IMG/VR virus record: IMGVR_UViG_2681813320_000003
Coordinates: 1-25,704 of that record
From: a virus
Lineage: Duplodnaviria > Heunggongvirae > Uroviricota > Caudoviricetes
Reading direction: 5' to 3' (one strand)
Length of the DNA: 25,704 bases
The notes beneath the pieces are model-generated. The model saw only the letters and a program-made list of their open reading frames with translations. It had not been told where the DNA came from and did no database searches. Position numbers and translations under genes: made by a program. Positions 5,409 through 23,456 of this stretch are shown here, one piece after another. Position 1 is the first letter of the stretch. The number at the start of each line of letters is the position of its first letter.

Positions 5409-5454
5409 AGGGAAAGGTTGCCATCAGGGGAAGAAAGGCGGCAGTGCTGCAACT

Positions 5455-5472
5455 TGTATCAGTGCTGATACA
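5455..5472. promoter_or_regulatory. TGT-N12-ACA dyad (palindrome TGTATCAG-TG-CTGATACA) upstream of V; candidate late-promoter activator site
   Basis: Exact TGT-N12-ACA dyad in the S-V intergenic gap, the signature of P2-family Ogr/B-dependent late promoters. Confidence 0.45.
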
Positions 5473-5476
5473 AAGA

Positions 5477-5923
5477 TCACCCCGCCAGCCATTGCAGAAT
5501 CATGTCGCGGGTCATTGCCTCAACATCATCATTTACACCCAGCAGGCGGCGCTCTGCGTAACGGACCTCCGGTCCTTTGCGACTGACGCGATCACGCAGG
5601 CCGTAATGGTGAACACGGGCAATACGCTGCACCTTGCCTTCAAACTGTACGCTGGCAGAGTCGGCGCTGGCGGCAGTTTTCAGGTATTTTGTGGTGCGCA
5701 GCTTTGCAAACATCTGACGTTTGATGCGCCCCTTCTTGCTGCGTGCTGTTACCCTGCGCGGTTCATAACTGCTGCCATCTGGATTGCGCTGCATCCTGAT
5801 ATTCTGCTGCTGTGTCCGGCGCAGTTCCTGCGCCAGCTGGCGCATCATGCGGCTTCTCGTGGCTGGTTCCAGATTCGCCAGCAAGGCACTCAGCCAGTCG
5901 TCCACCTTCTGCAGTTCAGCCAC
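5477..5923 (-). CDS. S: tail completion protein S
   Basis: 148-aa ORF; size and position of P2 gpS. Confidence 0.8.
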   Translation of the reverse strand: MAELQKVDDWLSALLANLEPATRSRMMRQLAQELRRTQQQNIRMQRNPDGSSYEPRRVTARSKKGRIKRQMFAKLRTTKYLKTAASADSASVQFEGKVQRIARVHHYGLRDRVSRKGPEVRYAERRLLGVNDDVEAMTRDMILQWLAG

Positions 5924-6368
5924 GTTTCACCGTCCACATTTCTTCAGGAGCATCAGGTTCCGCTATAGCTTCAACGCTCGACACACTGCCGTCAGTGCTG
6001 ACCAGCACACGTTCCGTCAGTTGCAGGTTCAGGCTGATATCACAGACATCGTTGCGCAGAATATCCACCTCAAAGGTGAATAGCTTTTCCCGTAACGCCG
6101 GGTTATTGATGGCATCGGGCTGGTTATCCCTCAGCCATAGCAAAACCGGGGCCATCAGCAGATTCTGGTCGCCGCTGAAATCCTCAATCACCGCGTTCAG
6201 TGTGTAACGGTACTCCCACGACATGGAGCTGGCCCCCGTGGCAACCAGCGAACCGTTATCCACAAACAGATGCAGTTTGTCCGGGTTATTGCGGACATAA
6301 GGCACCGCTTTATTGAGGGCGTGGCGCAGGGATTGTGGTTTGTTCACTGTTTCGCTCCTGACACGCAA
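5916..6368 (-). CDS. R: tail completion protein R
   Basis: 150-aa ORF; size and position of P2 gpR. Confidence 0.8.
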   Translation of the reverse strand: MRVRSETVNKPQSLRHALNKAVPYVRNNPDKLHLFVDNGSLVATGASSMSWEYRYTLNAVIEDFSGDQNLLMAPVLLWLRDNQPDAINNPALREKLFTFEVDILRNDVCDISLNLQLTERVLVSTDGSVSSVEAIAEPDAPEEMWTVKRG

Positions 6369-11426: not shown

Positions 11427-13193
11427 ATGAACACCACACTGACACCCGCAGATCTCGATCCCCGTCGGCAGGCCATGCTGCTGTACTTTCAGGGATACCG
11501 CGTAGCCCGCATTGCTGAAATGCTGGGCGAGAAAGTTGCAACCGTTCACAGCTGGAAAAAACGCGACAAGTGGGGTGACTATGGGCCGCTGGATCAGATG
11601 CAGCTCACCACCGCCGCACGCTACTGCCAGCTCATCATGAAGGAGCACAAAGAAGGGAAAGATTTCAAAGAGATTGACCTGCTGGCGCGCCAGTCTGAGC
11701 GCCACGCGCGGATCGGCAAGTTTAACAATGGCGGCAACGAAGCCGACTTAAACCCTAACGTCGCCAACCGCAATAAAGGCCCACGCCGTCAGCCGGAAAA
11801 GAATGTTTTCACCGATGAGCAGATTGAGAAGCTGGAAGAAATCTTCCATTCCTCCATGTTCAACTACCAGCGCCACTGGTGGGAAGCCGGAAAAACCAAC
11901 CGCATCCGCAACCTGCTAAAGTCACGCCAGATCGGCGCGACCTTTTACTTTGCCCGTGAAGCCCTGATTGACGCCCTGCTTACCGGGCGTAACCAGATTT
12001 TCCTTTCCGCCAGTAAGGCACAGGCCCACGTCTTTAAGCAGTACATCATCGACTTCGCCAAAGAAGTGGAGGTGGAGCTGAAAGGCGATCCGATGGTGCT
12101 TCCTAACGGGGCCACGCTTTACTTCCTCGGCACCAATGCCCGCACGGCCCAGAGTTATCACGGCAACCTGTATCTGGATGAATATTTCTGGATACCGAAA
12201 TTTCAGGAGCTACGCAAAGTGGCTTCCGGTATGGCTATTCACAAGAAATGGCGGCAGACCTATTTTTCCACACCATCCAGTCTTACCCACAGTGCTTATC
12301 CGTTCTGGTCCGGTGCGCTGTTCAACCGTGGGCGCAACAAAGCTGACAAGGTGGACATCGACCTGTCCCACAGCAATCTGGCCCCCGGCCTGCTGTGCGC
12401 AGACGGGCAATACCGCCAGATAGTCACCGTGGAAGATGCGGTGCGCGGCGGCTGTAACCTGTTCGACCTCGATCAGTTGCGCATGGAGTACAGCCCGGAC
12501 GAATACCAGAACCTGCTGATGTGTGAGTTCGTGGACGATCTCGCGTCCGTGTTCCCGCTCAGCGAGCTGCAGGCGTGCATGGTGGACAGTTGGGAAGTCT
12601 GGACCGACTTTCATGCACTGGCCCTGCGCCCGTTTGGCTGGCGCGAAGTGTGGATCGGTTATGACCCGGCAAAAGGTACGCAAAACGGCGACAGCGCCGG
12701 GTGCGTGGTGGTGGCACCGCCAGCCGTGCCGGGCGGTAAGTTCCGCATTCTTGAGCGTCACCAGTGGCGCGGGATGGACTTCCGCGCCCAGGCTGACGCC
12801 ATCAAAAAACTGACCGAACAGTACAACGTGACATACATCGGCATCGACTCGACAGGTGTCGGTCACGGGGTTTACGAGAACGTGAAAGCGTTCTTTCCTG
12901 CCGTCCGGGAGTTTGTCTACAACCCCAACGTTAAAAATGCCCTGGTACTCAAAGCCTACGACATTATCAGTCACCGTCGTCTGGAGTTTGACGCCGGACA
13001 CACCGACATAGCGCAGTCATTTATGGCAATCCGTCGCGCCACCACCGCCAGCGGCAACCGCCCGACCTATGAAGCCAGCCGCAGCGAAGAAGCCAGCCAT
13101 GCCGATCTGGCCTGGGCAACAATGCACGCACTGTTTAACGAACCGCTGCAGGGCGAGTCCGCCAATACCAGCAATATTGTGGAGATTTTTTGA
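11427..13193 (+). CDS. P: terminase large (ATPase) subunit P
   Basis: 588-aa ORF, same size class as P2 gpP, divergent from O and followed by Q. Confidence 0.9.
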   Translation: MNTTLTPADLDPRRQAMLLYFQGYRVARIAEMLGEKVATVHSWKKRDKWGDYGPLDQMQLTTAARYCQLIMKEHKEGKDFKEIDLLARQSERHARIGKFNNGGNEADLNPNVANRNKGPRRQPEKNVFTDEQIEKLEEIFHSSMFNYQRHWWEAGKTNRIRNLLKSRQIGATFYFAREALIDALLTGRNQIFLSASKAQAHVFKQYIIDFAKEVEVELKGDPMVLPNGATLYFLGTNARTAQSYHGNLYLDEYFWIPKFQELRKVASGMAIHKKWRQTYFSTPSSLTHSAYPFWSGALFNRGRNKADKVDIDLSHSNLAPGLLCADGQYRQIVTVEDAVRGGCNLFDLDQLRMEYSPDEYQNLLMCEFVDDLASVFPLSELQACMVDSWEVWTDFHALALRPFGWREVWIGYDPAKGTQNGDSAGCVVVAPPAVPGGKFRILERHQWRGMDFRAQADAIKKLTEQYNVTYIGIDSTGVGHGVYENVKAFFPAVREFVYNPNVKNALVLKAYDIISHRRLEFDAGHTDIAQSFMAIRRATTASGNRPTYEASRSEEASHADLAWATMHALFNEPLQGESANTSNIVEIF

Positions 13194-14227
13194 TGGGAAA
13201 GAGTAAGAAGAACCGCGCTGCATCGACGAACCAGATTCAGCATAAAAGCCAGACTTCAGCCGAAGCATTCAGCTTCGGCGATCCCGTTCCTGTTCTGGAC
13301 CGCCGAGAACTGCTGGATTATGTGGAATGCGTACAGATGGACCGCTGGTATGAGCCGCCCGTCAGCTTTGACGGACTGGCGCGCACCTTCCGCGCTGCCG
13401 TGCATCATAGTTCCCCGATTGCAGTAAAGTGCAACATTCTGACCAGCACCTACATCCCTCACCCGCTGCTCAGCCAGCAGGCTTTTTCGCGTTTTGTGCA
13501 GGACTATCTGGTATTTGGTAACGCCTACCTGGAGAAACGCACGAACCGCTTCGGTGAAGTTATCGCCCTTGAACCTGCCCTGGCAAAATACACCCGACGC
13601 GGGTTAGACCTGGATACCTACTGGTTTGTGCAATACGGTATGACAACCCAGCCGTATCAGTTCACGAAAGGCAGCATTTTTCATCTGATGGAGCCGGACA
13701 TCAACCAGGAGATCTACGGCCTGCCCGGTTATCTTTCTGCCATTCCGTCCGCCCTGCTCAACGAGTCCGCCACGCTGTTCCGCCGCAAGTATTACATTAA
13801 CGGCAGTCATGCAGGCTTCATCATGTACATGACCGATGCCGCGCAGAACCAGGAGGATGTGAACAACCTCCGCAATGCGATGAAAAGCGCCAAAGGCCCT
13901 GGCAACTTCCGCAATCTGTTTATGTACTCGCCTAATGGTAAAAAAGACGGACTTCAGATTATCCCGTTGTCAGAAGTCGCAGCGAAGGATGAGTTTCTGA
14001 ATATCAAGAACGTGAGCCGCGATGACATGATGGCAGCACACCGAGTGCCGCCGCAAATGATGGGGATTATGCCTAATAATGTCGGGGGGTTTGGGGATGT
14101 GGAGAAGGCAAGTCGGGTATTTGTTCGTAATGAATTAATACCTTTGCAAAAACGTTTCGAAGAATTAAATTTATGGCTAAAAAATAATATTATTACATTC
14201 AAAGAATATCAACTATCCCTAGACTAA
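13190..14227 (+). CDS. Q: portal protein Q; last ~35 codons abruptly AT-rich
   Basis: 345-aa ORF overlapping the P stop (ATGA); P2 gpQ size. A composition break near 14110 suggests a recombination joint inside the 3' end. Confidence 0.9.
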   Translation: MMGKSKKNRAASTNQIQHKSQTSAEAFSFGDPVPVLDRRELLDYVECVQMDRWYEPPVSFDGLARTFRAAVHHSSPIAVKCNILTSTYIPHPLLSQQAFSRFVQDYLVFGNAYLEKRTNRFGEVIALEPALAKYTRRGLDLDTYWFVQYGMTTQPYQFTKGSIFHLMEPDINQEIYGLPGYLSAIPSALLNESATLFRRKYYINGSHAGFIMYMTDAAQNQEDVNNLRNAMKSAKGPGNFRNLFMYSPNGKKDGLQIIPLSEVAAKDEFLNIKNVSRDDMMAAHRVPPQMMGIMPNNVGGFGDVEKASRVFVRNELIPLQKRFEELNLWLKNNIITFKEYQLSLD

Positions 14228-14232
14228 TTAAT

Positions 14233-14253
14233 AACCACCTCTATGAGGTGGTT
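14233..14253. terminator. perfect 9-bp hairpin (aaccacctc-tat-gaggtggtt) between convergent Q and cargo gene
   Basis: Inverted repeat read directly from the sequence; there is no strong T-tract, so terminator function is uncertain. Confidence 0.4.
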
Positions 14254-14274
14254 AACAAGAATAAACCTAATTAA

Positions 14275-15684
14275 TTACTCATCTACTCTGATTTTTTGTT
14301 TTTTATTATTTTGAGTTAAGACATTTATGGTAATAGATGTATACGGATGAAAGTCAGGCACTATACTTTTAACCTCTCCATTTTCAAGAAAATGATGTGC
14401 TATTGAAGGAAATAAATCAGGATCTACAGGATATTTAGCATTAGGATTATGATACATATTTAAACCTTCTGCCCATGTTTCTGTAATATCGCCTTCTTTC
14501 ACTTCAAAACTAAATGCTGCTGGATATAATGCCTCTGGGTCATGATCATGGCAGTAACCACTCCTAAATAATCTAAGGTCACTTCTTCCAAAACCAGCCA
14601 ATTTTCCCATCCGATTAAACTTCGATATAGTACCACTATTAGAACTAAGGACGGCCGAAATATTTTCAGACTCATCCAAGAAGAAAAAGCCTGAAGGAAT
14701 TTCCTTTTTCTCAAATTGATGCGATATAATTTTCTTAGTTGCTAAACTGTAACATCCATCTTCAGATTTAACATGCTCATAGCGAATACCATAAAGATAC
14801 TGCCAAAGTGCACTATGGGACCAAATCATAGAGTTTGGTTCATGAAAATCAGCAATTGCGAAAATTAAAGGATTCCCCTTAACATGTTCTAGATCCCAGT
14901 ATCGAGTTTTCTTTTTCAGTTTAGAATAGAGAGAACTTCCAAATTTAATCGGCATATAATTCTCTATTTTCTCTAGCAATTCTTCCTTACTTTTAGGTTC
15001 AGATAGCATTTCAGATGATTGATTAATATCATTCCCTGTTGGATTAACCGTTACAGCTTCAATGCAAATAGTATTACCATACTTACGTGCCACATAATCA
15101 GGAGCATTAAACTGCCTATCTAGCCAAAAGTGTTCCTCTCGTAAATATGCGAAAAGATATAACTCCCATAGCCGGGCATCAAAACCTGTTGTCTGAAACT
15201 GCTCTATAAAATTCCCGTCGACATCCTCAAAATGATTCATCATTTCCTTGATTATCCCTGTTGCAGGCGACCAGTTCGCGTATTTACCAAATAATGAAAA
15301 ATGATGATGAAGTTTATCTGGTGTAACTATAGGTGTGAATAAATCCATTGCTTTATAAGTTTCATCACCTTGTGGAAATACTTTTACGTTTAATTTAGTA
15401 TGCTTCCGCATTAATTTCTTTAGTTTTGCTCGTGCAGAATTCATTTCTGAAACACTAGTAAATAGGTCAATACATCTATATCTCCCACTTAAGTCTCTTG
15501 CTAAAACAATACCGCTATAATCTTCATCGATTTGATCCAATAATAGCGCCCCTAGCAGGAACTCTCTCGGACTACAGTACCACTCAAACTCATAGCCTAA
15601 AAGTTCAGTATTTGGCATTCTGGTCCAATCAACAAAAGCATTAAACCTCTCTTTACTCATTTTTTTTATATCAAGAAAAGACAT
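14275..15684 (-). CDS. hypothetical protein, AT-rich cargo (moron) gene; function unknown
   Basis: 469-aa uninterrupted ORF in markedly AT-rich DNA, with a GAGGT Shine-Dalgarno 8 nt upstream of the ATG. No Walker A or other motif recognisable by eye. Confidence 0.75.
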   Translation of the reverse strand: MSFLDIKKMSKERFNAFVDWTRMPNTELLGYEFEWYCSPREFLLGALLLDQIDEDYSGIVLARDLSGRYRCIDLFTSVSEMNSARAKLKKLMRKHTKLNVKVFPQGDETYKAMDLFTPIVTPDKLHHHFSLFGKYANWSPATGIIKEMMNHFEDVDGNFIEQFQTTGFDARLWELYLFAYLREEHFWLDRQFNAPDYVARKYGNTICIEAVTVNPTGNDINQSSEMLSEPKSKEELLEKIENYMPIKFGSSLYSKLKKKTRYWDLEHVKGNPLIFAIADFHEPNSMIWSHSALWQYLYGIRYEHVKSEDGCYSLATKKIISHQFEKKEIPSGFFFLDESENISAVLSSNSGTISKFNRMGKLAGFGRSDLRLFRSGYCHDHDPEALYPAAFSFEVKEGDITETWAEGLNMYHNPNAKYPVDPDLFPSIAHHFLENGEVKSIVPDFHPYTSITINVLTQNNKKQKIRVDE

Positions 15685-15781
15685 CTTTCTACCTCATCAC
15701 GAAAAAATATTTTTTCCTAAAAAGACTTAAGTTAGCTTAATCTATTGATAAAAAAAAGCTAAGTAACGACCAAATACGCGC

Positions 15782-15801
15782 GCTCGTATCCCCGCCACGC
15801 C
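15782..15801. other. cos-like cohesive-end site
   Basis: The reverse complement GGCGTGGCGGGGATACGAGC shares its first 13 nt (GGCGTGGCGGGGA) with the P2/186 cohesive-end sequences as I recall them. Confidence 0.45.
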
Positions 15802-15846
15802 TGCCCGCTTTATGTAGTGGTTTTCATGCACCTGCATGATCTACGC

Positions 15847-15870
15847 AAAAGCCCGCCAGTTCTGGCGGGC
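15847..15870 (-). terminator. rho-independent terminator downstream of the dinI-like gene
   Basis: GC-rich hairpin gcccgccag-tt-ctggcgggc followed by a TTTT run on the minus strand. Confidence 0.5.
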
Positions 15871-16005
15871 CTTAGCAAAAACGATCCTCAAACGATCATG
15901 CGATCTCATGCGGCATAGACATGCACTACAGAGCTAACGCCTCGCAAGGGCTCGTTGTTCAACCTTGCTGACGCCAGAAGCAAGTTCAGACGCCAGCAAC
16001 GTTTC

Positions 16006-16239
16006 TTAATGCAGCCAGCTGTCGTCTTCCCACACCTTCTGCATAATTTTCATCACTTGTTTTCTTTCTTCGTCCAGTTGCAGTCCGGTTAGTTCCACAC
16101 CGTTAGAGCTACCTTTGCGAATGCGAATTACCGTTTTGGGATACAGGGGGCGCAGATTGCGGTAAAGCTCGGATTCAAGGGCGTCCAGGGTAGACTGGCT
16201 AATCTTCTGCTCTTTATCGATCATTATTTCAATGCGCAT
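16006..16239 (-). CDS. dinI: DinI-family protein (Tum C-terminal-like)
   Basis: From the internal ATG 16237-16239 the product MRIEIMIDK...LDALESEL...KIMQKVWEDDSWLH aligns by eye along its length with E. coli DinI (MRIEVTIAK...IDALAGEL...ILQETWESADDW). GAGGTG Shine-Dalgarno upstream. Confidence 0.75.
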   Translation of the reverse strand: MRIEIMIDKEQKISQSTLDALESELYRNLRPLYPKTVIRIRKGSSNGVELTGLQLDEERKQVMKIMQKVWEDDSWLH

Positions 16240-16249
16240 AAAAGTCACC

Positions 16250-16438
16250 TCAGCTGATGACATCCATTGAGCGGTTGTATTCGTGGGTTCTGATTTTTGC
16301 CATGAGTTCATCAGTCAATTCAGAAACCCACTGCAGAGCCAGCCCCTTCTCTTCATCACTACACTCACTAGCCGCTACAAGCTTAAGAAAAAAATCAATG
16401 CGCTGGAGCTTCAAAGACTCCAAAAAATAGTCCTGCAT
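16250..16438 (-). CDS. small protein, possible Tum N-terminal-like antirepressor moiety
   Basis: 62-aa ORF from ATG 16436-16438 with a strong AGGAGG Shine-Dalgarno, immediately upstream of the dinI-like gene and downstream of a LexA box. The longer track ORF (to 16540) would overlap the LexA box. Confidence 0.5.
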   Translation of the reverse strand: MQDYFLESLKLQRIDFFLKLVAASECSDEEKGLALQWVSELTDELMAKIRTHEYNRSMDVIS

Positions 16439-16481
16439 CTTTCCTCCTATGACACCACACGCAATGCTGTATGCATAACCA

Positions 16482-16497
16482 CTGTTTATATTTACAG
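16482..16497. promoter_or_regulatory. LexA operator (SOS box) CTGT-N8-ACAG
   Basis: Exact match actgtttatatttacagta to the consensus TACTGT(AT)4ACAGTA, located about 45 bp upstream of the tum-like start on the minus strand. Confidence 0.7.
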
Positions 16498-16591
16498 TAT
16501 ATAATAATCTTACTGATGTAAAACGATTTTTTACGTTCATCAGCCTGATATGCCTGGTATTATTAAGAGCACGAATTGTTAACCCGCGTAA

Positions 16592-19006
16592 TTAATACAG
16601 GTTCCGCCACTGATCATCTTCCTGCAAACGCTGGTTCCGATAGAAGATACGCAGGCCTGCTCCTGACGGAATACTGCCTCCGCGAAGGAGTAAATCGACC
16701 TCTTTCTCGCTGCCATCAAATCCTCTGGACTTCAGCTCATACACGAGCTGCAGTCGCTGATGGTCTGTAATTCGCTGTTTGTAGTCTTTACGCCGTTTCG
16801 GTTTCACCAGGCGTAACCTTGCTGCCAGTTCCCTGCGCTCTTTTTTGCTCATACTGTGCAGGTAATCGTGCAACTCCTTGTCATCCATGCTGGTAATGTC
16901 CGTTCTGGGGTCCCCATCAGCTGATTTATCTTTCTCCTGTTGGTTCAAATTTTCAGCAAGGGGACAGTTATTGCCACGAGTCCAAGGGGCGCAAGCGCCC
17001 TGGTCGGCTGCCGCCTCCTGAACGTCAACGGCCTTACGAACCATTTTCCACTTCACTGCATGAGTGCAGATTTTGCCCTCTGCAATGGGTGACCAGATGC
17101 CATAAATACGAATGCCGTGATCGCCATAGGCGGTCGGCTCTTCGTTGATTTCATAAGCGGTTCTGATGAGGTGATATTTACGGGGAACCAGTACGCCGCC
17201 CTGCTTCATGATGTAGGTGGCAAAACAACCAGCATCAGCTGCAGCCAGAATGGCATCAAGGCGCGGGTTATCCAGTACCGGCGCACCTGCTTTTTTGTCA
17301 CCCTGTTGCCTTGCCACCTGACCAGCCAGCAATCGCAGTTCACGGTAAGCCTGACGCCCCGGAATGCCAAAGAAGCGGAATTGCTGAACACGATGCAGAG
17401 ACGCCCAGGCATTAACGTATTCAGCGTTATCACGCAGAGATTTACCCGTTTCCTTGCTGATCTCGCCAGCCAGACCACGCCCGTCAATGTTCTTACTGAT
17501 GTATTTCGCGATGTAGCTAGTCGGCGTTCCTTTGCGCGGGTTAATCAACTCAGACTTAAAGCGCGGCCCCGTGTTATTGCCCAGCTCCTCGCGGTCTTCA
17601 CGGATGGCAAACTTACGCAGTAATGCAGTGATGGCGCGGCGGTCTTTTTTGCGCATAAAACACAACAGGTGCCAGTGAACTGTGCCGTCATGATGCGGCT
17701 CAGCAACCCGCACGCCATACCAGCGCAACCCGGCTTTGTGCATAGCCTTACGAAATGCAGCAAACATGCCGACCAGATAATCACTGCTTTGTCTTACCGT
17801 CGCATTTGTCCAGTTCGGGTTGGGTCTGCCGTTATTTAGCGTGGAATGGAAACGTGACGGACAGGTGATGGTGTAGAAAACGGCGCAGTCACCGCGCATT
17901 TCCGCGATAAGTTCCAGACCTTTAACACAGGCCATCATCTCATTGCGGCGATGCGCAGGGTTGCTGCTGCTGGCGTTTACCACATCCTCCATGTCCAGCG
18001 TGTCGCCGTCTTCGTTCACCAGTTCATGAGAACGGAAAAACTCCAGCGACTTACGGCGCTGCTCACGTTTATGCATCACGGCTTCATAGCTGACATAAGG
18101 AGATGCTTTTTTGCTGACCAGGCAGACAGCGCGCAACTGCTCTTCCCGCCATTCGCAACGCATCTTCCATAATTTCCGGTACCACCAGTCAGCGCACAAC
18201 ATACGCGCCAGCGAACCCGGAATGAGTTCATAGGGCACGGGTTTACGGCGGTTTCTTTTCCGACGGAGTTGCTCAAACGCAGGCGGGATAACATCCAGAC
18301 GCAGGGTTTCCGCTACCACCTTTTCCCATGTCTTGCGGATTTCTTCTGGCTTAACGTCATCGGTGGCATACAAATCACCACAAGCTGCATCAAGGCACAT
18401 GCTCATATGCGCAGCGACAAGGGTAGACAGGCGCTTCACCTGATCCTGACTCATTTCAGGCAGGATAAGCAGGCCATCCAGCCCTTCATGGCTTGCCATA
18501 AAGCGAAAAGAAGCGGATAGCTGACTGTCGCGTACATGCTCCAGTCGTTCCAGACATGGCTTAATCGTCTCACGCAAATAGCGGGAATAAGCCTTTGGCC
18601 TGCCCAGGCTGCTGAAGTATTCAATACGTTGCATCAGCGGCTTGCTGATATGGGAAGGCTGGGCATTGACGTCCGCCAGAATGACCATATCTGGATTAAA
18701 ACGCTGCTGCTCATGCGCCAGCTTTGCCCGACTAATGAGCTTATCCTGCTCCATTTCGCGCTGGACAGGATCACGGGATTCATTAAAGAAATAACGCTCC
18801 CAGACCTGATCACTCAGTGCCTCGCGGCGCAGCTGTTCCTGCTCGTTATCGGCAGCGTACAGAGTGATCAGGTTTGAAAGCGCAGAAACCGGCGCAACTT
18901 CCGCCGGGTCCAGATAAGGGTTAATGGCCTTTTTCGGGCTGTTCCATGAGAACGATGCGGCAGCCTCGTTAAAGCCGCAGCAGTTGTTCATATCGGCATG
19001 GCTCAT
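16592..19006 (-). CDS. A: replication initiation protein A (rolling-circle endonuclease, P2 gpA family)
   Basis: 804-aa ORF with an HUH-type metal-binding motif ([13 protein letters not shown]) and a paired-tyrosine motif (YIAKYISKN); P2 gpA size class. Confidence 0.85.
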
Positions 19007-22439: not shown

Positions 22440-23456
22440 ATGACTGTCAGAAAACAGCCAAACGGTAAATGGTTGTGCGAGTGCTATCCCAATGGACGCA
22501 ATGGCAAGCGCGTGCGTAAGCAATTTGCTACGAAAGGCGAAGCCATTGCTTTTGAAGGCTTCACAATGGAAGAGGTGAACAAAAAACCATGGCTGGGGGA
22601 AAAGGAAGATCGGCGACACCTATCAGAATTAATTGAGCAGTGGTATTCCCTGTATGGTCAAACACTCGCAGACCCCAAGCGCCTCATGGCGAAACTTAGA
22701 ATTATCTGTAATGGTCTAGGCGATCCCATCGCCTCAGAACTAACAGCCGGTGACTTTACGAAATACCGCGAAGCACGGTTAAAAGGTGAAGTACGAAATG
22801 AAGATGGCACGCTTATGTCGCCCGTTAAGCCCCGCACGGTAAACCTTGAACAGCGCAATCTATCATCGGTGTTCGGTACATTAAAAAAACTAGGACACTG
22901 GTCAGCACCAAACCCGCTGGCAGGACTTCCGACCTTCAAAATTACCGAAGGTGAGCTGGCTTTTCTTTCCGTGGACGAAATCAAGCGCCTGTTGGCTGCA
23001 TGTGCTGAATCTCAAAGCCCGAGCCTACTAATGATTGCAAAAATATGCTTAGCTACCGGCGCACGGTGGAGTGAAGCCGAAAACCTTCAGGGCCACCAAA
23101 TATCGAAATACCGAATTACTTATACAAAGACAAAGGGCAAGAAAAACAGAACAGTACCAATATCTCAAGATCTGTATCACGAACTCCCCAAAAACAGAGG
23201 GAAGTTATTCACGCCATGCAGAAAATCTTTTGAGCGTGCAGTAAAAAGAGCAGGTATTGACTTGCCAGAGGGCCAGTGCACGCATGTATTGCGCCATACA
23301 TTCGCTAGTCACTTTATGATGAATGGCGGAAATATTCTTGTATTGAGAGATATTTTAGGGCACTCAGATATAAAAATGACAATGGTCTATGCCCATTTCG
23401 CACCAGAACATCTTGAAGATGCTGTTACTAAAAACCCCTTATTTAACTTAAAGTGA
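22440..23456 (+). CDS. int: tyrosine integrase (P2/186 family)
   Basis: 338 aa with conserved catalytic-region motifs (ARWSEAENL; HVLRHTFASHF; LGHSDIKMTMVYAHF); starts 2 nt after the cI stop. Confidence 0.9.
   Translation: MTVRKQPNGKWLCECYPNGRNGKRVRKQFATKGEAIAFEGFTMEEVNKKPWLGEKEDRRHLSELIEQWYSLYGQTLADPKRLMAKLRIICNGLGDPIASELTAGDFTKYREARLKGEVRNEDGTLMSPVKPRTVNLEQRNLSSVFGTLKKLGHWSAPNPLAGLPTFKITEGELAFLSVDEIKRLLAACAESQSPSLLMIAKICLATGARWSEAENLQGHQISKYRITYTKTKGKKNRTVPISQDLYHELPKNRGKLFTPCRKSFERAVKRAGIDLPEGQCTHVLRHTFASHFMMNGGNILVLRDILGHSDIKMTMVYAHFAPEHLEDAVTKNPLFNLK

What the first reader, a model, noticed from the sequence alone, without database searches (positions are those of the whole stretch)
14090..14230. 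Recombination joint inside the 3' end of portal gene Q
Seen in sequence: the Q reading frame continues uninterrupted, but the DNA switches abruptly to AT-rich codons for the last ~35 residues (…NELIPLQKRFEELNLWLKNNIITFKEYQLSLD). Inference: the cargo module was acquired by homologous recombination with a low-GC donor phage using the conserved Q 3' end as one crossover arm, which would make cargo exchange at this site modular.
Basis: inference. Interest (0 to 1): 0.45.

Follow-up and report, generated by a model that had tools for sequence, protein, structure and literature searches.

The report
Cargo-swap joint inside phage portal gene
The last 40 codons of this P2-like prophage's portal gene belong to a swappable anti-phage defence cassette, not to the phage backbone; this maps one edge of an already known defence hotspot to within 26 bases.

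Summary
The portal gene Q (13193-14227) stays in frame, but third-codon-position G+C falls from 0.655 to 0.20 at nt ~14108.

It is a recombination joint, mapped to 14084-14109.
- Prophages in E. coli S88 and H15 share everything from 14084 to cos with the window (4 mismatches in 2,217 nt). They differ at 42 of 891 positions in the Q body.
- A prophage carrying a retron matches the window's Q body up to 14109 and then diverges.

In 51 close relatives, synonymous sites become saturated from 14105 while the protein motif persists. Tail alleles travel with the cargo, here the PD-T7-1 defence gene (14275-15684). Loci with nothing between Q and cos, including P2 itself, have tails of normal G+C.

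The cassette's other edge is the invariant cos core (15776-15812). A single crossover in Q plus cos cleavage would therefore swap it; that step is inferred.

No low-G+C donor phage was found. The immediate recombination partner was an ordinary E. coli P2-like prophage.

The hotspot and its rapid swapping are published. The joint inside Q and the cargo-linked, hypervariable portal C-terminus were not mentioned in the three papers I could check. Interest is moderate.

The parts
11427..13193 (+). gpP, terminase large (ATPase) subunit; backbone gene upstream of Q
   Evidence: 588-aa ORF. It is collinear with genes annotated 'terminase ATPase subunit' in S88, H15, Cartapus and P2.
13193..14083 (+). 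Q (portal) body, backbone-type sequence, GC3 0.655
   Evidence: Pfam Phage_portal, E = 4e-18. It is 94-96% identical to the Q body of S88/H15-type prophages that carry the same cassette (42 mismatches in 891 nt). It is 97.9% identical to JNE082640, which carries a different cassette.
14084..14109 (+). Crossover interval, GGGGGGTTTGGGGATGTGGAGAAGGC (codons for G-F-G-D-V-E-K-A); the recombination joint
   Evidence: The last difference from S88, H15, L085 and L086 is at 14083. The first difference from JNE082640 is at 14110. The GC3 change point is at 14108. Third-position identity across relatives collapses from 14105.
14105..14227 (+). Q tail: the last 40 codons plus stop. AT-rich (GC3 0.20), hypervariable among relatives and inherited together with the cargo
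   Evidence: It is identical in the S88 and H15 prophages. It was found at 99% or more in only 25 E. coli genomes.
14233..14255 (.). Stable hairpin (AACCACCTC-TAT-GAGGTGGTT) between the convergent Q and cargo genes; probably a two-way terminator. P2's tQ terminator likewise starts 6 nt after its Q stop
   Evidence: MFE -16.4 kcal/mol, z = -4.2, 0 of 200 shuffles as stable. P2 tQ annotation. The simple terminator scan did not report it because no T run follows.
14275..15684 (-). Cargo gene: 469-aa PD-T7-1 family anti-phage defence protein, G+C 0.35, GC3 0.26
   Evidence: PADLOC PD-T7-1, E = 1.3e-196, profile positions 2-449 of 452. No Pfam domain. RefSeq annotates it 'hypothetical protein'. PD-T7-1 was validated experimentally by Vassallo et al. 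2022, PMC9519451.
15685..15775 (-). AT-rich region upstream of the cargo gene; the rightmost part of the cassette
   Evidence: Relatives with other cargo show no homology here; homology resumes at 15774-15777.
15776..15927 (.). cos island. The invariant core is 15776-15812. The equivalent of P2's 19-nt cohesive end is 15783-15801 (CTCGTATCCCCGCCACGCC). This is the right boundary of the cassette
   Evidence: Alignment to P2 cosL/cosR and to the annotated Cartapus cos. 132 of 164 loci resume homology here. In 27 pairs with near-identical cassettes, the first differences appear just to the right of the cohesive end.

Best explanation
The window is an E. coli P2-like prophage. Positions ~14105-15775 form an exchangeable end cassette made of three parts: the last 40 codons of portal gene Q, a terminator-like hairpin, and the PD-T7-1 defence gene with its upstream region.

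Its left edge is a homologous-recombination joint inside Q, mapped to 14084-14109. Crossovers happen in the conserved Q body because the tails are too diverged to pair, so each cargo keeps its own old Q-tail allele.

Its right edge is the cos cohesive-end core (15776-15812), which is the physical end of the packaged chromosome. I infer, but have not shown, that one crossover in Q between two co-resident P2-like genomes, followed by cos cutting, is enough to swap the cassette.

The tail still encodes a working portal C-terminus: the residues P-L-Q...N.W...F..Y are kept. Its AT-richness goes with the cargo, not with the host backbone.
For: Shown directly:
1. Joint in this window. S88, H15, L085 and L086 carry the same cassette, with 4 mismatches in 14084-16300, against 42 mismatches in 13193-14083 (Fisher p = 4e-19). 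The last mismatch is at 14083. JNE082640, which carries a retron St85 cassette, has 3 differences from the window in 13940-14109 and then diverges.
2. Population pattern. In 51 dereplicated relatives with Q at least 93% identical in protein, third-position identity is about 0.75 up to 14104 and 0.34-0.48 after. Positions 1 and 2 stay at 0.83-0.95 for the next 45 nt. Synonymous difference pS is 0.34 in the body and 0.85-0.89 in the tail.
3. The tail ignores backbone relatedness. Tail identity among close relatives (0.72, 0.59, 0.54) equals that to other genera (0.72, 0.59, 0.55). There are 54 distinct tails among 84 close loci.
4. Tail-cargo linkage. 57 of 64 same-tail pairs share a cargo, against about 1.6% of all pairs. 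Tails of homologous but diverged cargo are 0.725 identical, against 0.571 background (p = 1e-29). In E. coli genomes, 25 carry the tail and 25 carry the cargo.
5. Recurrence. For at least 9 cargo types, the cassette is 98.6-99.9% identical while the adjacent 600 nt of Q is 92-96% identical.
6. AT-richness is tied to cargo. Nine empty Q-cos sites have tail GC3 0.69 and P2 has 0.76, against 0.35 in 123 cargo-bearing loci. Tail GC3 correlates with insert G+C (r = 0.74) but body GC3 does not (r = 0.16).
7. Right edge at cos. In 27 pairs with near-identical cassettes but a diverged cos island (under 96% identity, mostly with unrelated DNA beyond it), the two are identical through the cohesive end and differ from 2-18 nt beyond it. 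For H15 the shared block ends between 15746 and 15815.

Literature: Rousset et al. 2022 (PMC9122126) speculated that cos ends plus one homologous event exchange this locus.
Against: - The direction of the exchange is unknown; the Q body rather than the cassette could have been replaced.
- S88, H15, L085 and L086 share one Q haplotype near the joint, so for this cargo the left joint may record a single event.
- The cos core is invariant. Sequence alone cannot distinguish cos cleavage plus one crossover from a second homologous crossover inside the roughly 35-bp core.
- In S88 the shared block runs through cos to about 17000, so that pair needs either a second crossover in gene A or shared ancestry of that stretch.
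- From my own knowledge, P2 recombines poorly in standard crosses.
- The cause of the tails' AT-richness is not established.
- Loci were sampled from public collections and dereplicated only by tail cluster, so p-values overstate independence.
Confidence: 0.85

Rival explanations
1. Low-G+C donor phage. The tail and cargo were imported in one step from a P2-like phage of a low-G+C host, and the tail keeps that donor's codon usage.
For: Tail GC3 (0.20) is close to cargo GC3 (0.26) and far from body GC3 (0.655). The amino-acid changes in the tail run in the AT-rich direction, for example G/E/V/R to K/N/I/T. Tail GC3 tracks insert G+C across loci.
Against: No Q gene that is AT-rich throughout was found. 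All 165 retrieved Q bodies have GC3 of at least 0.53. The best tail match among 50,697 phage records is 69.7% in protein, from Klebsiella, E. coli and Salmonella phages. The best non-identical match among 5.8 billion proteins is 80%. The identifiable recombination partners are ordinary E. coli prophages. My searches favoured close relatives, so low-G+C lineages were poorly sampled.
Confidence: 0.25
2. AT decay in place. The tails were originally of normal G+C. Once tied to a cargo kept diverse by selection, they stopped recombining with other Q genes and drifted toward AT under the general AT-biased mutation pressure of bacteria. No exotic donor is needed.
For: Empty sites have normal-G+C tails that diverge at the same rate as the body: 85% against 88% for L012 versus L032. 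Cargo-linked tails are saturated at synonymous sites. Diversity is already raised in the 160 nt left of the joint, with identity 0.88-0.91 against 0.94-0.98 further upstream, as expected for sequence linked to a balanced polymorphism.
Against: This is pure inference, with no direct measurement of mutation bias or recombination rate. The step at 14105 is very sharp. This model and the low-G+C donor model predict nearly the same present-day pattern.
Confidence: 0.35
3. Diversifying selection on the portal C-terminus itself, independent of the cargo. For example, it could be escape from host defences that sense portal proteins.
For: The C-terminal ~25 residues are hypervariable: 54 variants in 84 close loci, with up to 9 or more residues per position. 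From my own knowledge, portal proteins are known triggers of some defence systems, such as Avs4.
Against: Synonymous sites are saturated and dN (0.12-0.39) is well below dS, so there is no sign of positive selection. The variation is tied to cargo identity. Empty-site tails show no excess divergence. The composition shift also affects the 14 codons whose protein sequence is conserved.
Confidence: 0.05
4. Illegitimate insertion. The cargo landed inside Q and supplied an unrelated replacement C-terminus.
For: The composition change occurs inside the coding sequence.
Against: The tail is clearly homologous to other Q C-termini. P317, L318, Q319, N326, W328, F336 and Y339 are conserved across 100 tail types, including P2. 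The first 14 tail codons encode the same peptide as in relatives.
Confidence: 0.02
5. Assembly artefact or chimera.
For: None.
Against: The same joint, tail and cargo are present in 25 complete E. coli genomes and in several IMG/VR contigs.
Confidence: 0.01

Closest known systems
P2-like phage defence hotspot between gpA (replication) and gpQ (portal), next to cos (Rousset et al. 2022, PMC9122126; Vassallo et al. 2022, PMC9519451; originally the old/tin locus of P2)
   Same: Same locus, same neighbours, next to cos, highly variable content, and carries a validated defence family (PD-T7-1). Rousset et al. speculated that cos ends plus one homologous recombination event exchange the locus.
   Different: Those papers place the hotspot 'between' gpA and gpQ. 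Here the left boundary lies 120 nt inside gpQ. The hotspot also splits at cos into two sub-sites that assort independently. The window's cargo is on the Q side; P2's old and tin are on the A side, and P2's Q-cos interval is empty.
Rapid swapping of defence loci in P2 and P4 (Moura de Sousa et al. 2026, PMC13586616)
   Same: Elements with near-identical core genes carry different defences, and homologous recombination between flanking genes is discussed as a mechanism.
   Different: That is a gene-level analysis. The words 'breakpoint' and 'junction' do not occur in the paper, and 'portal' occurs once, only as a landmark. Here the joint is resolved to 26 nt and the portal C-terminus is shown to travel with the cargo.
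Mosaic junctions and modular exchange in lambdoid phages (Baker et al. 1991, cited in PMC13586616; other knowledge my own)
   Same: There is a sharp transition from high to low identity, and crossovers occur in conserved sequence beside a variable module.
   Different: Here the junction is inside an essential structural gene and leaves a chimeric but functional protein. One boundary is the genome end (cos) rather than a second homology patch.
Hitchhiking divergence beside hypervariable loci, for example gnd next to the E. coli O-antigen cluster (my own knowledge)
   Same: Sequence flanking a locus kept diverse by selection shows far deeper allelic divergence than the rest of the genome, and divergence decays with distance.
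   Different: The flank here is only 40 codons, has saturated synonymous sites, and has shifted in base composition.

Membership tests
P2-like gpA-gpQ cos-adjacent defence hotspot | Lies between the portal gene gpQ and the replication gene gpA of a P2-like (Peduoviridae) phage | tested here: met
   Gene order is P, Q, cargo, cos, DinI-like, gpA (16592-19006). It is collinear with Cartapus, S88, H15 and P2.
P2-like gpA-gpQ cos-adjacent defence hotspot | Directly adjacent to cos | tested here: met
   The cassette ends at 15775. The equivalent of the cohesive end is 15783-15801.
P2-like gpA-gpQ cos-adjacent defence hotspot | Gene content varies among phages with near-identical core genes | tested here: met
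   There are 85 cargo clusters among 155 loci. Retron St85, SEFIR, DUF4145 and RT cargos sit beside Q genes 95-98% identical to the window's.
P2-like gpA-gpQ cos-adjacent defence hotspot | Cargo confers anti-phage defence | not testable with these tools
   Only the HMM match to PD-T7-1 and the published phenotype of that family are available.
Homologous-recombination mosaic joint | Abrupt change in divergence between the same two genomes at one point | tested here: met
   42 of 891 positions differ left of the joint against 4 of 2,217 right of it; p = 4e-19.
Homologous-recombination mosaic joint | Different relatives match the left side and the right side | tested here: met
   JNE082640 matches the left side up to 14109. 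S88 and H15 match the right side from 14084.
Homologous-recombination mosaic joint | The joint lies in a stretch identical in both parental types | tested here: met
   The 26-nt interval 14084-14109 is identical in the window, S88, H15 and JNE082640.
Homologous-recombination mosaic joint | Depends on RecA or a phage recombinase and not on a site-specific enzyme | not testable with these tools
   There is no Chi site nearby. I did not make a systematic search for recombinase sites.
PD-T7-1 defence protein family | Full-length match to the family profile | tested here: met
   E = 1.3e-196; residues 7-457 match profile positions 2-449 of 452.
Phage_portal (PF04860) | Profile match above the curated cut-off | tested here: met
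   66 bits against a cut-off of 39.1. No solved structure is detectable by sequence.
Targeted hypermutation of a C-terminus (diversity-generating-retroelement style) | Variation confined to nonsynonymous or adenine positions, with a template repeat and a reverse transcriptase | tested here: not met
   Synonymous sites are saturated and composition has shifted. Variation tracks cargo identity. I did not search for a template repeat.

The most novel reading that the evidence does not exclude
The portal C-terminal allele may be functionally matched to its cargo rather than only hitchhiking with it. For example, a defence cassette could discriminate against the portals or packaging of competing P2-like phages and of P4 satellites while sparing the portal tail encoded next to it. 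Each cassette would then be a combined 'weapon plus self-mark' unit. A weaker form of the idea is that tail divergence is maintained because it blocks recombination and so keeps cassettes intact.
Probability: 0.05. Interest if true: 0.75.

Novelty: new member of a known kind. Interest (0 to 1): 0.4.

Why it matters
This gives nucleotide-level anatomy for a published defence hotspot.

- The exchangeable unit runs from codon ~305 of the portal gene to the cohesive end. It is therefore the terminal segment of the packaged chromosome.
- That fits, and sharpens, the published speculation that one homologous crossover plus cos cutting swaps defences between P2-like phages.

Practical consequences:
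- Hotspot-mining pipelines that anchor on 'portal protein' will cluster portals by a C-terminus that reflects the cargo, not the phage.
- The Q-tail allele can serve as a short barcode for cassette lineage.
- An essential structural protein tolerates wholesale replacement of its last ~25 residues.

It does not reveal a new kind of system.

Tried and rejected
- Chi-stimulated recombination. The only GCTGGTGG in the window is at 735-742, no more than expected by chance.
- Special conservation of the crossover interval. Third-position identity at 14075-14104 (0.67-0.77) is no higher than elsewhere in Q. In cross-genus comparisons the segment left of the joint is among the better conserved but is not unique. 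I dropped the 'last conserved island' idea as unproven.
- Low-G+C donor search. tblastn of the tail against 50,697 phage records and a 44-aa search of 5.8 billion proteins found nothing closer than 70% and 80% respectively.
- Short portal fragments. The protein search returned only fragments of 42-77 aa. Two that I inspected were frameshifted assemblies and a prophage with an internal deletion, not a separate reservoir of cassettes.
- PD-T7-1 homologues at 72-75% identity. One sits beside a Q gene of another genus, with a tail that shares only the IPLQKRFEELN start. This was not decisive.
- Solved structures. There were no sequence hits for Q, and I did not run a structure prediction.
- Literature. 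Odegrip et al. 2006, which first described this variable locus, is not held, so I could not check whether it noted the joint.
- Technical misses. There was a wrong frame and a stop codon in a reference.

Full report
**What the window is.** It is an E. coli P2-like (Peduoviridae) prophage. In the + direction it reads terminase gpP (11427-13193), portal gpQ (13193-14227), a 469-aa gene on the minus strand (14275-15684), the cos region (from 15776), small DinI-like ORFs, and replication gene gpA (16592-19006, minus strand). This order is collinear with phage Cartapus, with the prophages of E. coli S88 and H15, and with P2. The minus-strand gene is a full-length member of the PD-T7-1 anti-phage family (PADLOC E = 1.3e-196; no Pfam domain). 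That family was found by functional selection, partly in P2 prophages (Vassallo et al. 2022, PMC9519451).

Q is one open frame ending in the quoted peptide.
- GC3 is 0.655 in codons 1-304 and 0.20 in codons 305-344 (Fisher p = 5e-8).
- The best change point is nt 14108, and 0 of 2,000 permutations reached the observed statistic (profiles).
- Tail GC3 (0.20) resembles the cargo gene's (0.26).

**It is a recombination joint, mapped to 26 nt.**
- 25 of 5,426 complete E. coli genomes carry the same Q end plus cargo.
- Four such prophages (S88, H15 and two IMG/VR contigs) differ from the window at 42 of 891 positions in the Q body, with the last difference at 14083. They differ at only 4 of 2,217 positions from 14084 to 16300 (Fisher p = 4e-19).
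- Conversely, the genome whose Q body is closest to the window's apart from the window's own clone (JNE082640, 97.9%) carries a retron St85 cassette. It has 3 differences from the window in 13940-14109 and then diverges at nearly every third position.
- The crossover therefore lies in 14084-14109, sequence GGGGGGTTTGGGGATGTGGAGAAGGC. This agrees with the independent composition change point.

**The pattern is general.** I collected 164 related loci from one-genome-per-species contigs, IMG/VR and phage records.
- Among 84 loci whose Q is at least 93% identical in protein, there are 54 different C-terminal tails.
- In 51 sequences dereplicated by tail, third-position identity is about 0.75 up to 14104 and drops to 0.34-0.48 from 14105. 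Positions 1 and 2 stay at 0.83-0.95 for the next 45 nt, which encode KASRVFVRNELxPLQ, and then fall to 0.6-0.7.
- Synonymous difference rises from 0.34 (body) and 0.43 (last 14 codons before the joint) to 0.85-0.89, which is saturation. dN is 0.12-0.39, so there is no sign of positive selection.
- Tails of close relatives are as different from each other as from tails in other genera.
- A scaffold of residues is kept in 100 tail types (P317, L318, Q319, N326, W328, F336, Y339). Tail length after NEL varies from 26 to 36 codons.

**The tail belongs to the cargo.**
- 57 of 64 same-tail pairs share a cargo cluster, against about 1.6% of all pairs.
- After removing near-identical tails, tails linked to homologous cargo are 0.725 identical, against 0.571 for unrelated cargo (p = 1e-29).
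- For at least nine cargo types, there are pairs whose cassette is 98.6-99.9% identical while the adjacent 600 nt of Q is only 92-96% identical.
- The window's tail occurs at 99% or more in exactly 25 E. coli genomes, and the next best matches are at most about 89% over part of its length. The five examples listed there are all among the 25 cargo carriers.

**AT-richness goes with cargo.**
- Nine loci with nothing between Q and cos (143-244 nt) have tail GC3 0.69. P2 itself (186 nt) has 0.76. The 123 cargo-bearing loci average 0.35.
- Tail GC3 correlates with insert G+C (r = 0.74, n = 97). Body GC3 does not (r = 0.16).
- Empty-site tails diverge like the body, 85% against 88%.

**The right edge is cos.**
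- Homology to relatives with other cargo resumes at 15774-15777.
- Alignment to P2 puts the equivalent of the 19-nt cohesive end at 15783-15801.
- I examined 27 pairs with near-identical cassettes but a diverged cos island (under 96% identity, mostly with unrelated DNA beyond it). In each, the two sequences are identical through the invariant core GCGCGCGCTCGTATCCCCGCCACGCC, and the first differences fall 2-18 nt past the cohesive end.
- For H15, the block shared with the window ends between 15746 and 15815. For S88, it runs on to about 17000.
- So the gpA-gpQ hotspot is really two sub-sites, Q-cos and cos-A, that assort independently. P2's old and tin sit in the second.

**Mechanism.**
- Shown: a homologous joint in Q, tail-cargo linkage, and a boundary at cos.
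- Inferred: the cassette is the terminal segment of the packaged genome. One crossover in the Q body between two P2-like genomes makes a heterodimer, from which cos-to-cos packaging releases a genome with a swapped end.
- Rousset et al. 2022 speculated essentially this (PMC9122126).
- Sequence alone cannot exclude a second crossover inside the ~35-bp invariant cos core.
- The tails are too diverged to pair, which would keep crossovers to their left and preserve the sharp step. Raised diversity in the 160 nt left of the joint fits linkage decay.

**What is not supported.** I found no low-G+C donor.
- All retrieved Q bodies have GC3 of at least 0.53.
- No phage record has a tail more than 70% identical.
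- The best non-identical tail among 5.8 billion proteins is 80% identical.
- The immediate recombination partner was an ordinary E. coli prophage.
- Whether the tails descend from low-G+C phages or decayed toward AT once they stopped recombining is open. My sampling of low-G+C hosts was poor.

**Comparison with the literature.** The hotspot (Rousset 2022; Vassallo 2022) and its fast, pseudogene-free swapping (Moura de Sousa et al. 2026, PMC13586616) are known. In those three papers 'portal' appears only as a landmark. In the 2026 paper, 'breakpoint' and 'junction' do not occur. Odegrip et al. 2006 could not be read. I therefore rate this as a well-resolved instance of a known kind, with two details that may be new: the boundary inside Q with a cargo-linked portal C-terminus, and cos as the other boundary.

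**Verdict.** Confidence in the joint and cassette reading is 0.85. Interest is 0.4.

Noticed in passing
window 15928-16590; related loci right of cos: The cos-to-gpA interval is a second variable sub-site that assorts independently of the Q-cos cassette. Many pairs have identical Q-cos cassettes but unalignable DNA beyond the cos island. H15 has an extra 336-nt ORF here compared with the window and S88. P2's old and tin lie on this side.
   Followed up: partly
window 5409-5518: This is the site of another P2 accessory locus. E. coli S88 has about 1.9 kb here that the window lacks, containing a gene annotated 'AIPR family protein' between the baseplate V gene and the virion morphogenesis gene. 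The window has only about 110 nt at this position.
   Followed up: no
window 14233-14255: A 10-bp perfect hairpin lies 6 nt after the Q stop, between the convergent Q and PD-T7-1 genes (z = -4.2). P2's tQ terminator also starts 6 nt after its Q stop. I did not check whether every cassette brings its own hairpin.
   Followed up: partly
window 14084-14109: The crossover interval is strongly G-rich (GGGGGGTTTGGGGATGTGGAG), and GC skew peaks at +0.28 in 14000-14199. I did not test whether G-runs favour exchange here. Third-position conservation is not unusual.
   Followed up: partly
E. coli strains 33-6 and 58-3 (hits H54, H55), near window ~14034: Two genomes have an IS1 inserted in Q just left of the joint while keeping the same tail and cargo. 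This probably explains the 66-aa protein P0001, which has a 100% identical tail.
   Followed up: no
L178 and L179 (IMG/VR metagenome contigs), reverse strand ~2270-2510 and ~2731-2971: A PD-T7-1 homologue (73% identity) sits next to only the last ~78 codons of a Q gene. That fragment is fused upstream to unrelated 62% G+C DNA. It is either a degraded prophage or a cassette with its Q arm in another context.
   Followed up: partly
L184 (Klebsiella variicola, BQTJ01000013.1) 5641-6247: This prophage has an internal deletion joining the tail tube gene to a 49-aa Q C-terminal fragment. A 516-aa ATPase-like cargo, DinI and gpA follow.
   Followed up: no
L165 (E. coli S88) 14693-17133: The gpA replication endonuclease of the S88 prophage, which carries the same cassette, is annotated as frameshifted. 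That prophage may be defective although its cassette is intact.
   Followed up: no
window 22800-23440: Identity to the S88 prophage falls to about 80% across the 3' part of the integrase gene, and homology is lost beyond 23441. This is another mosaic boundary, at the integration module.
   Followed up: no
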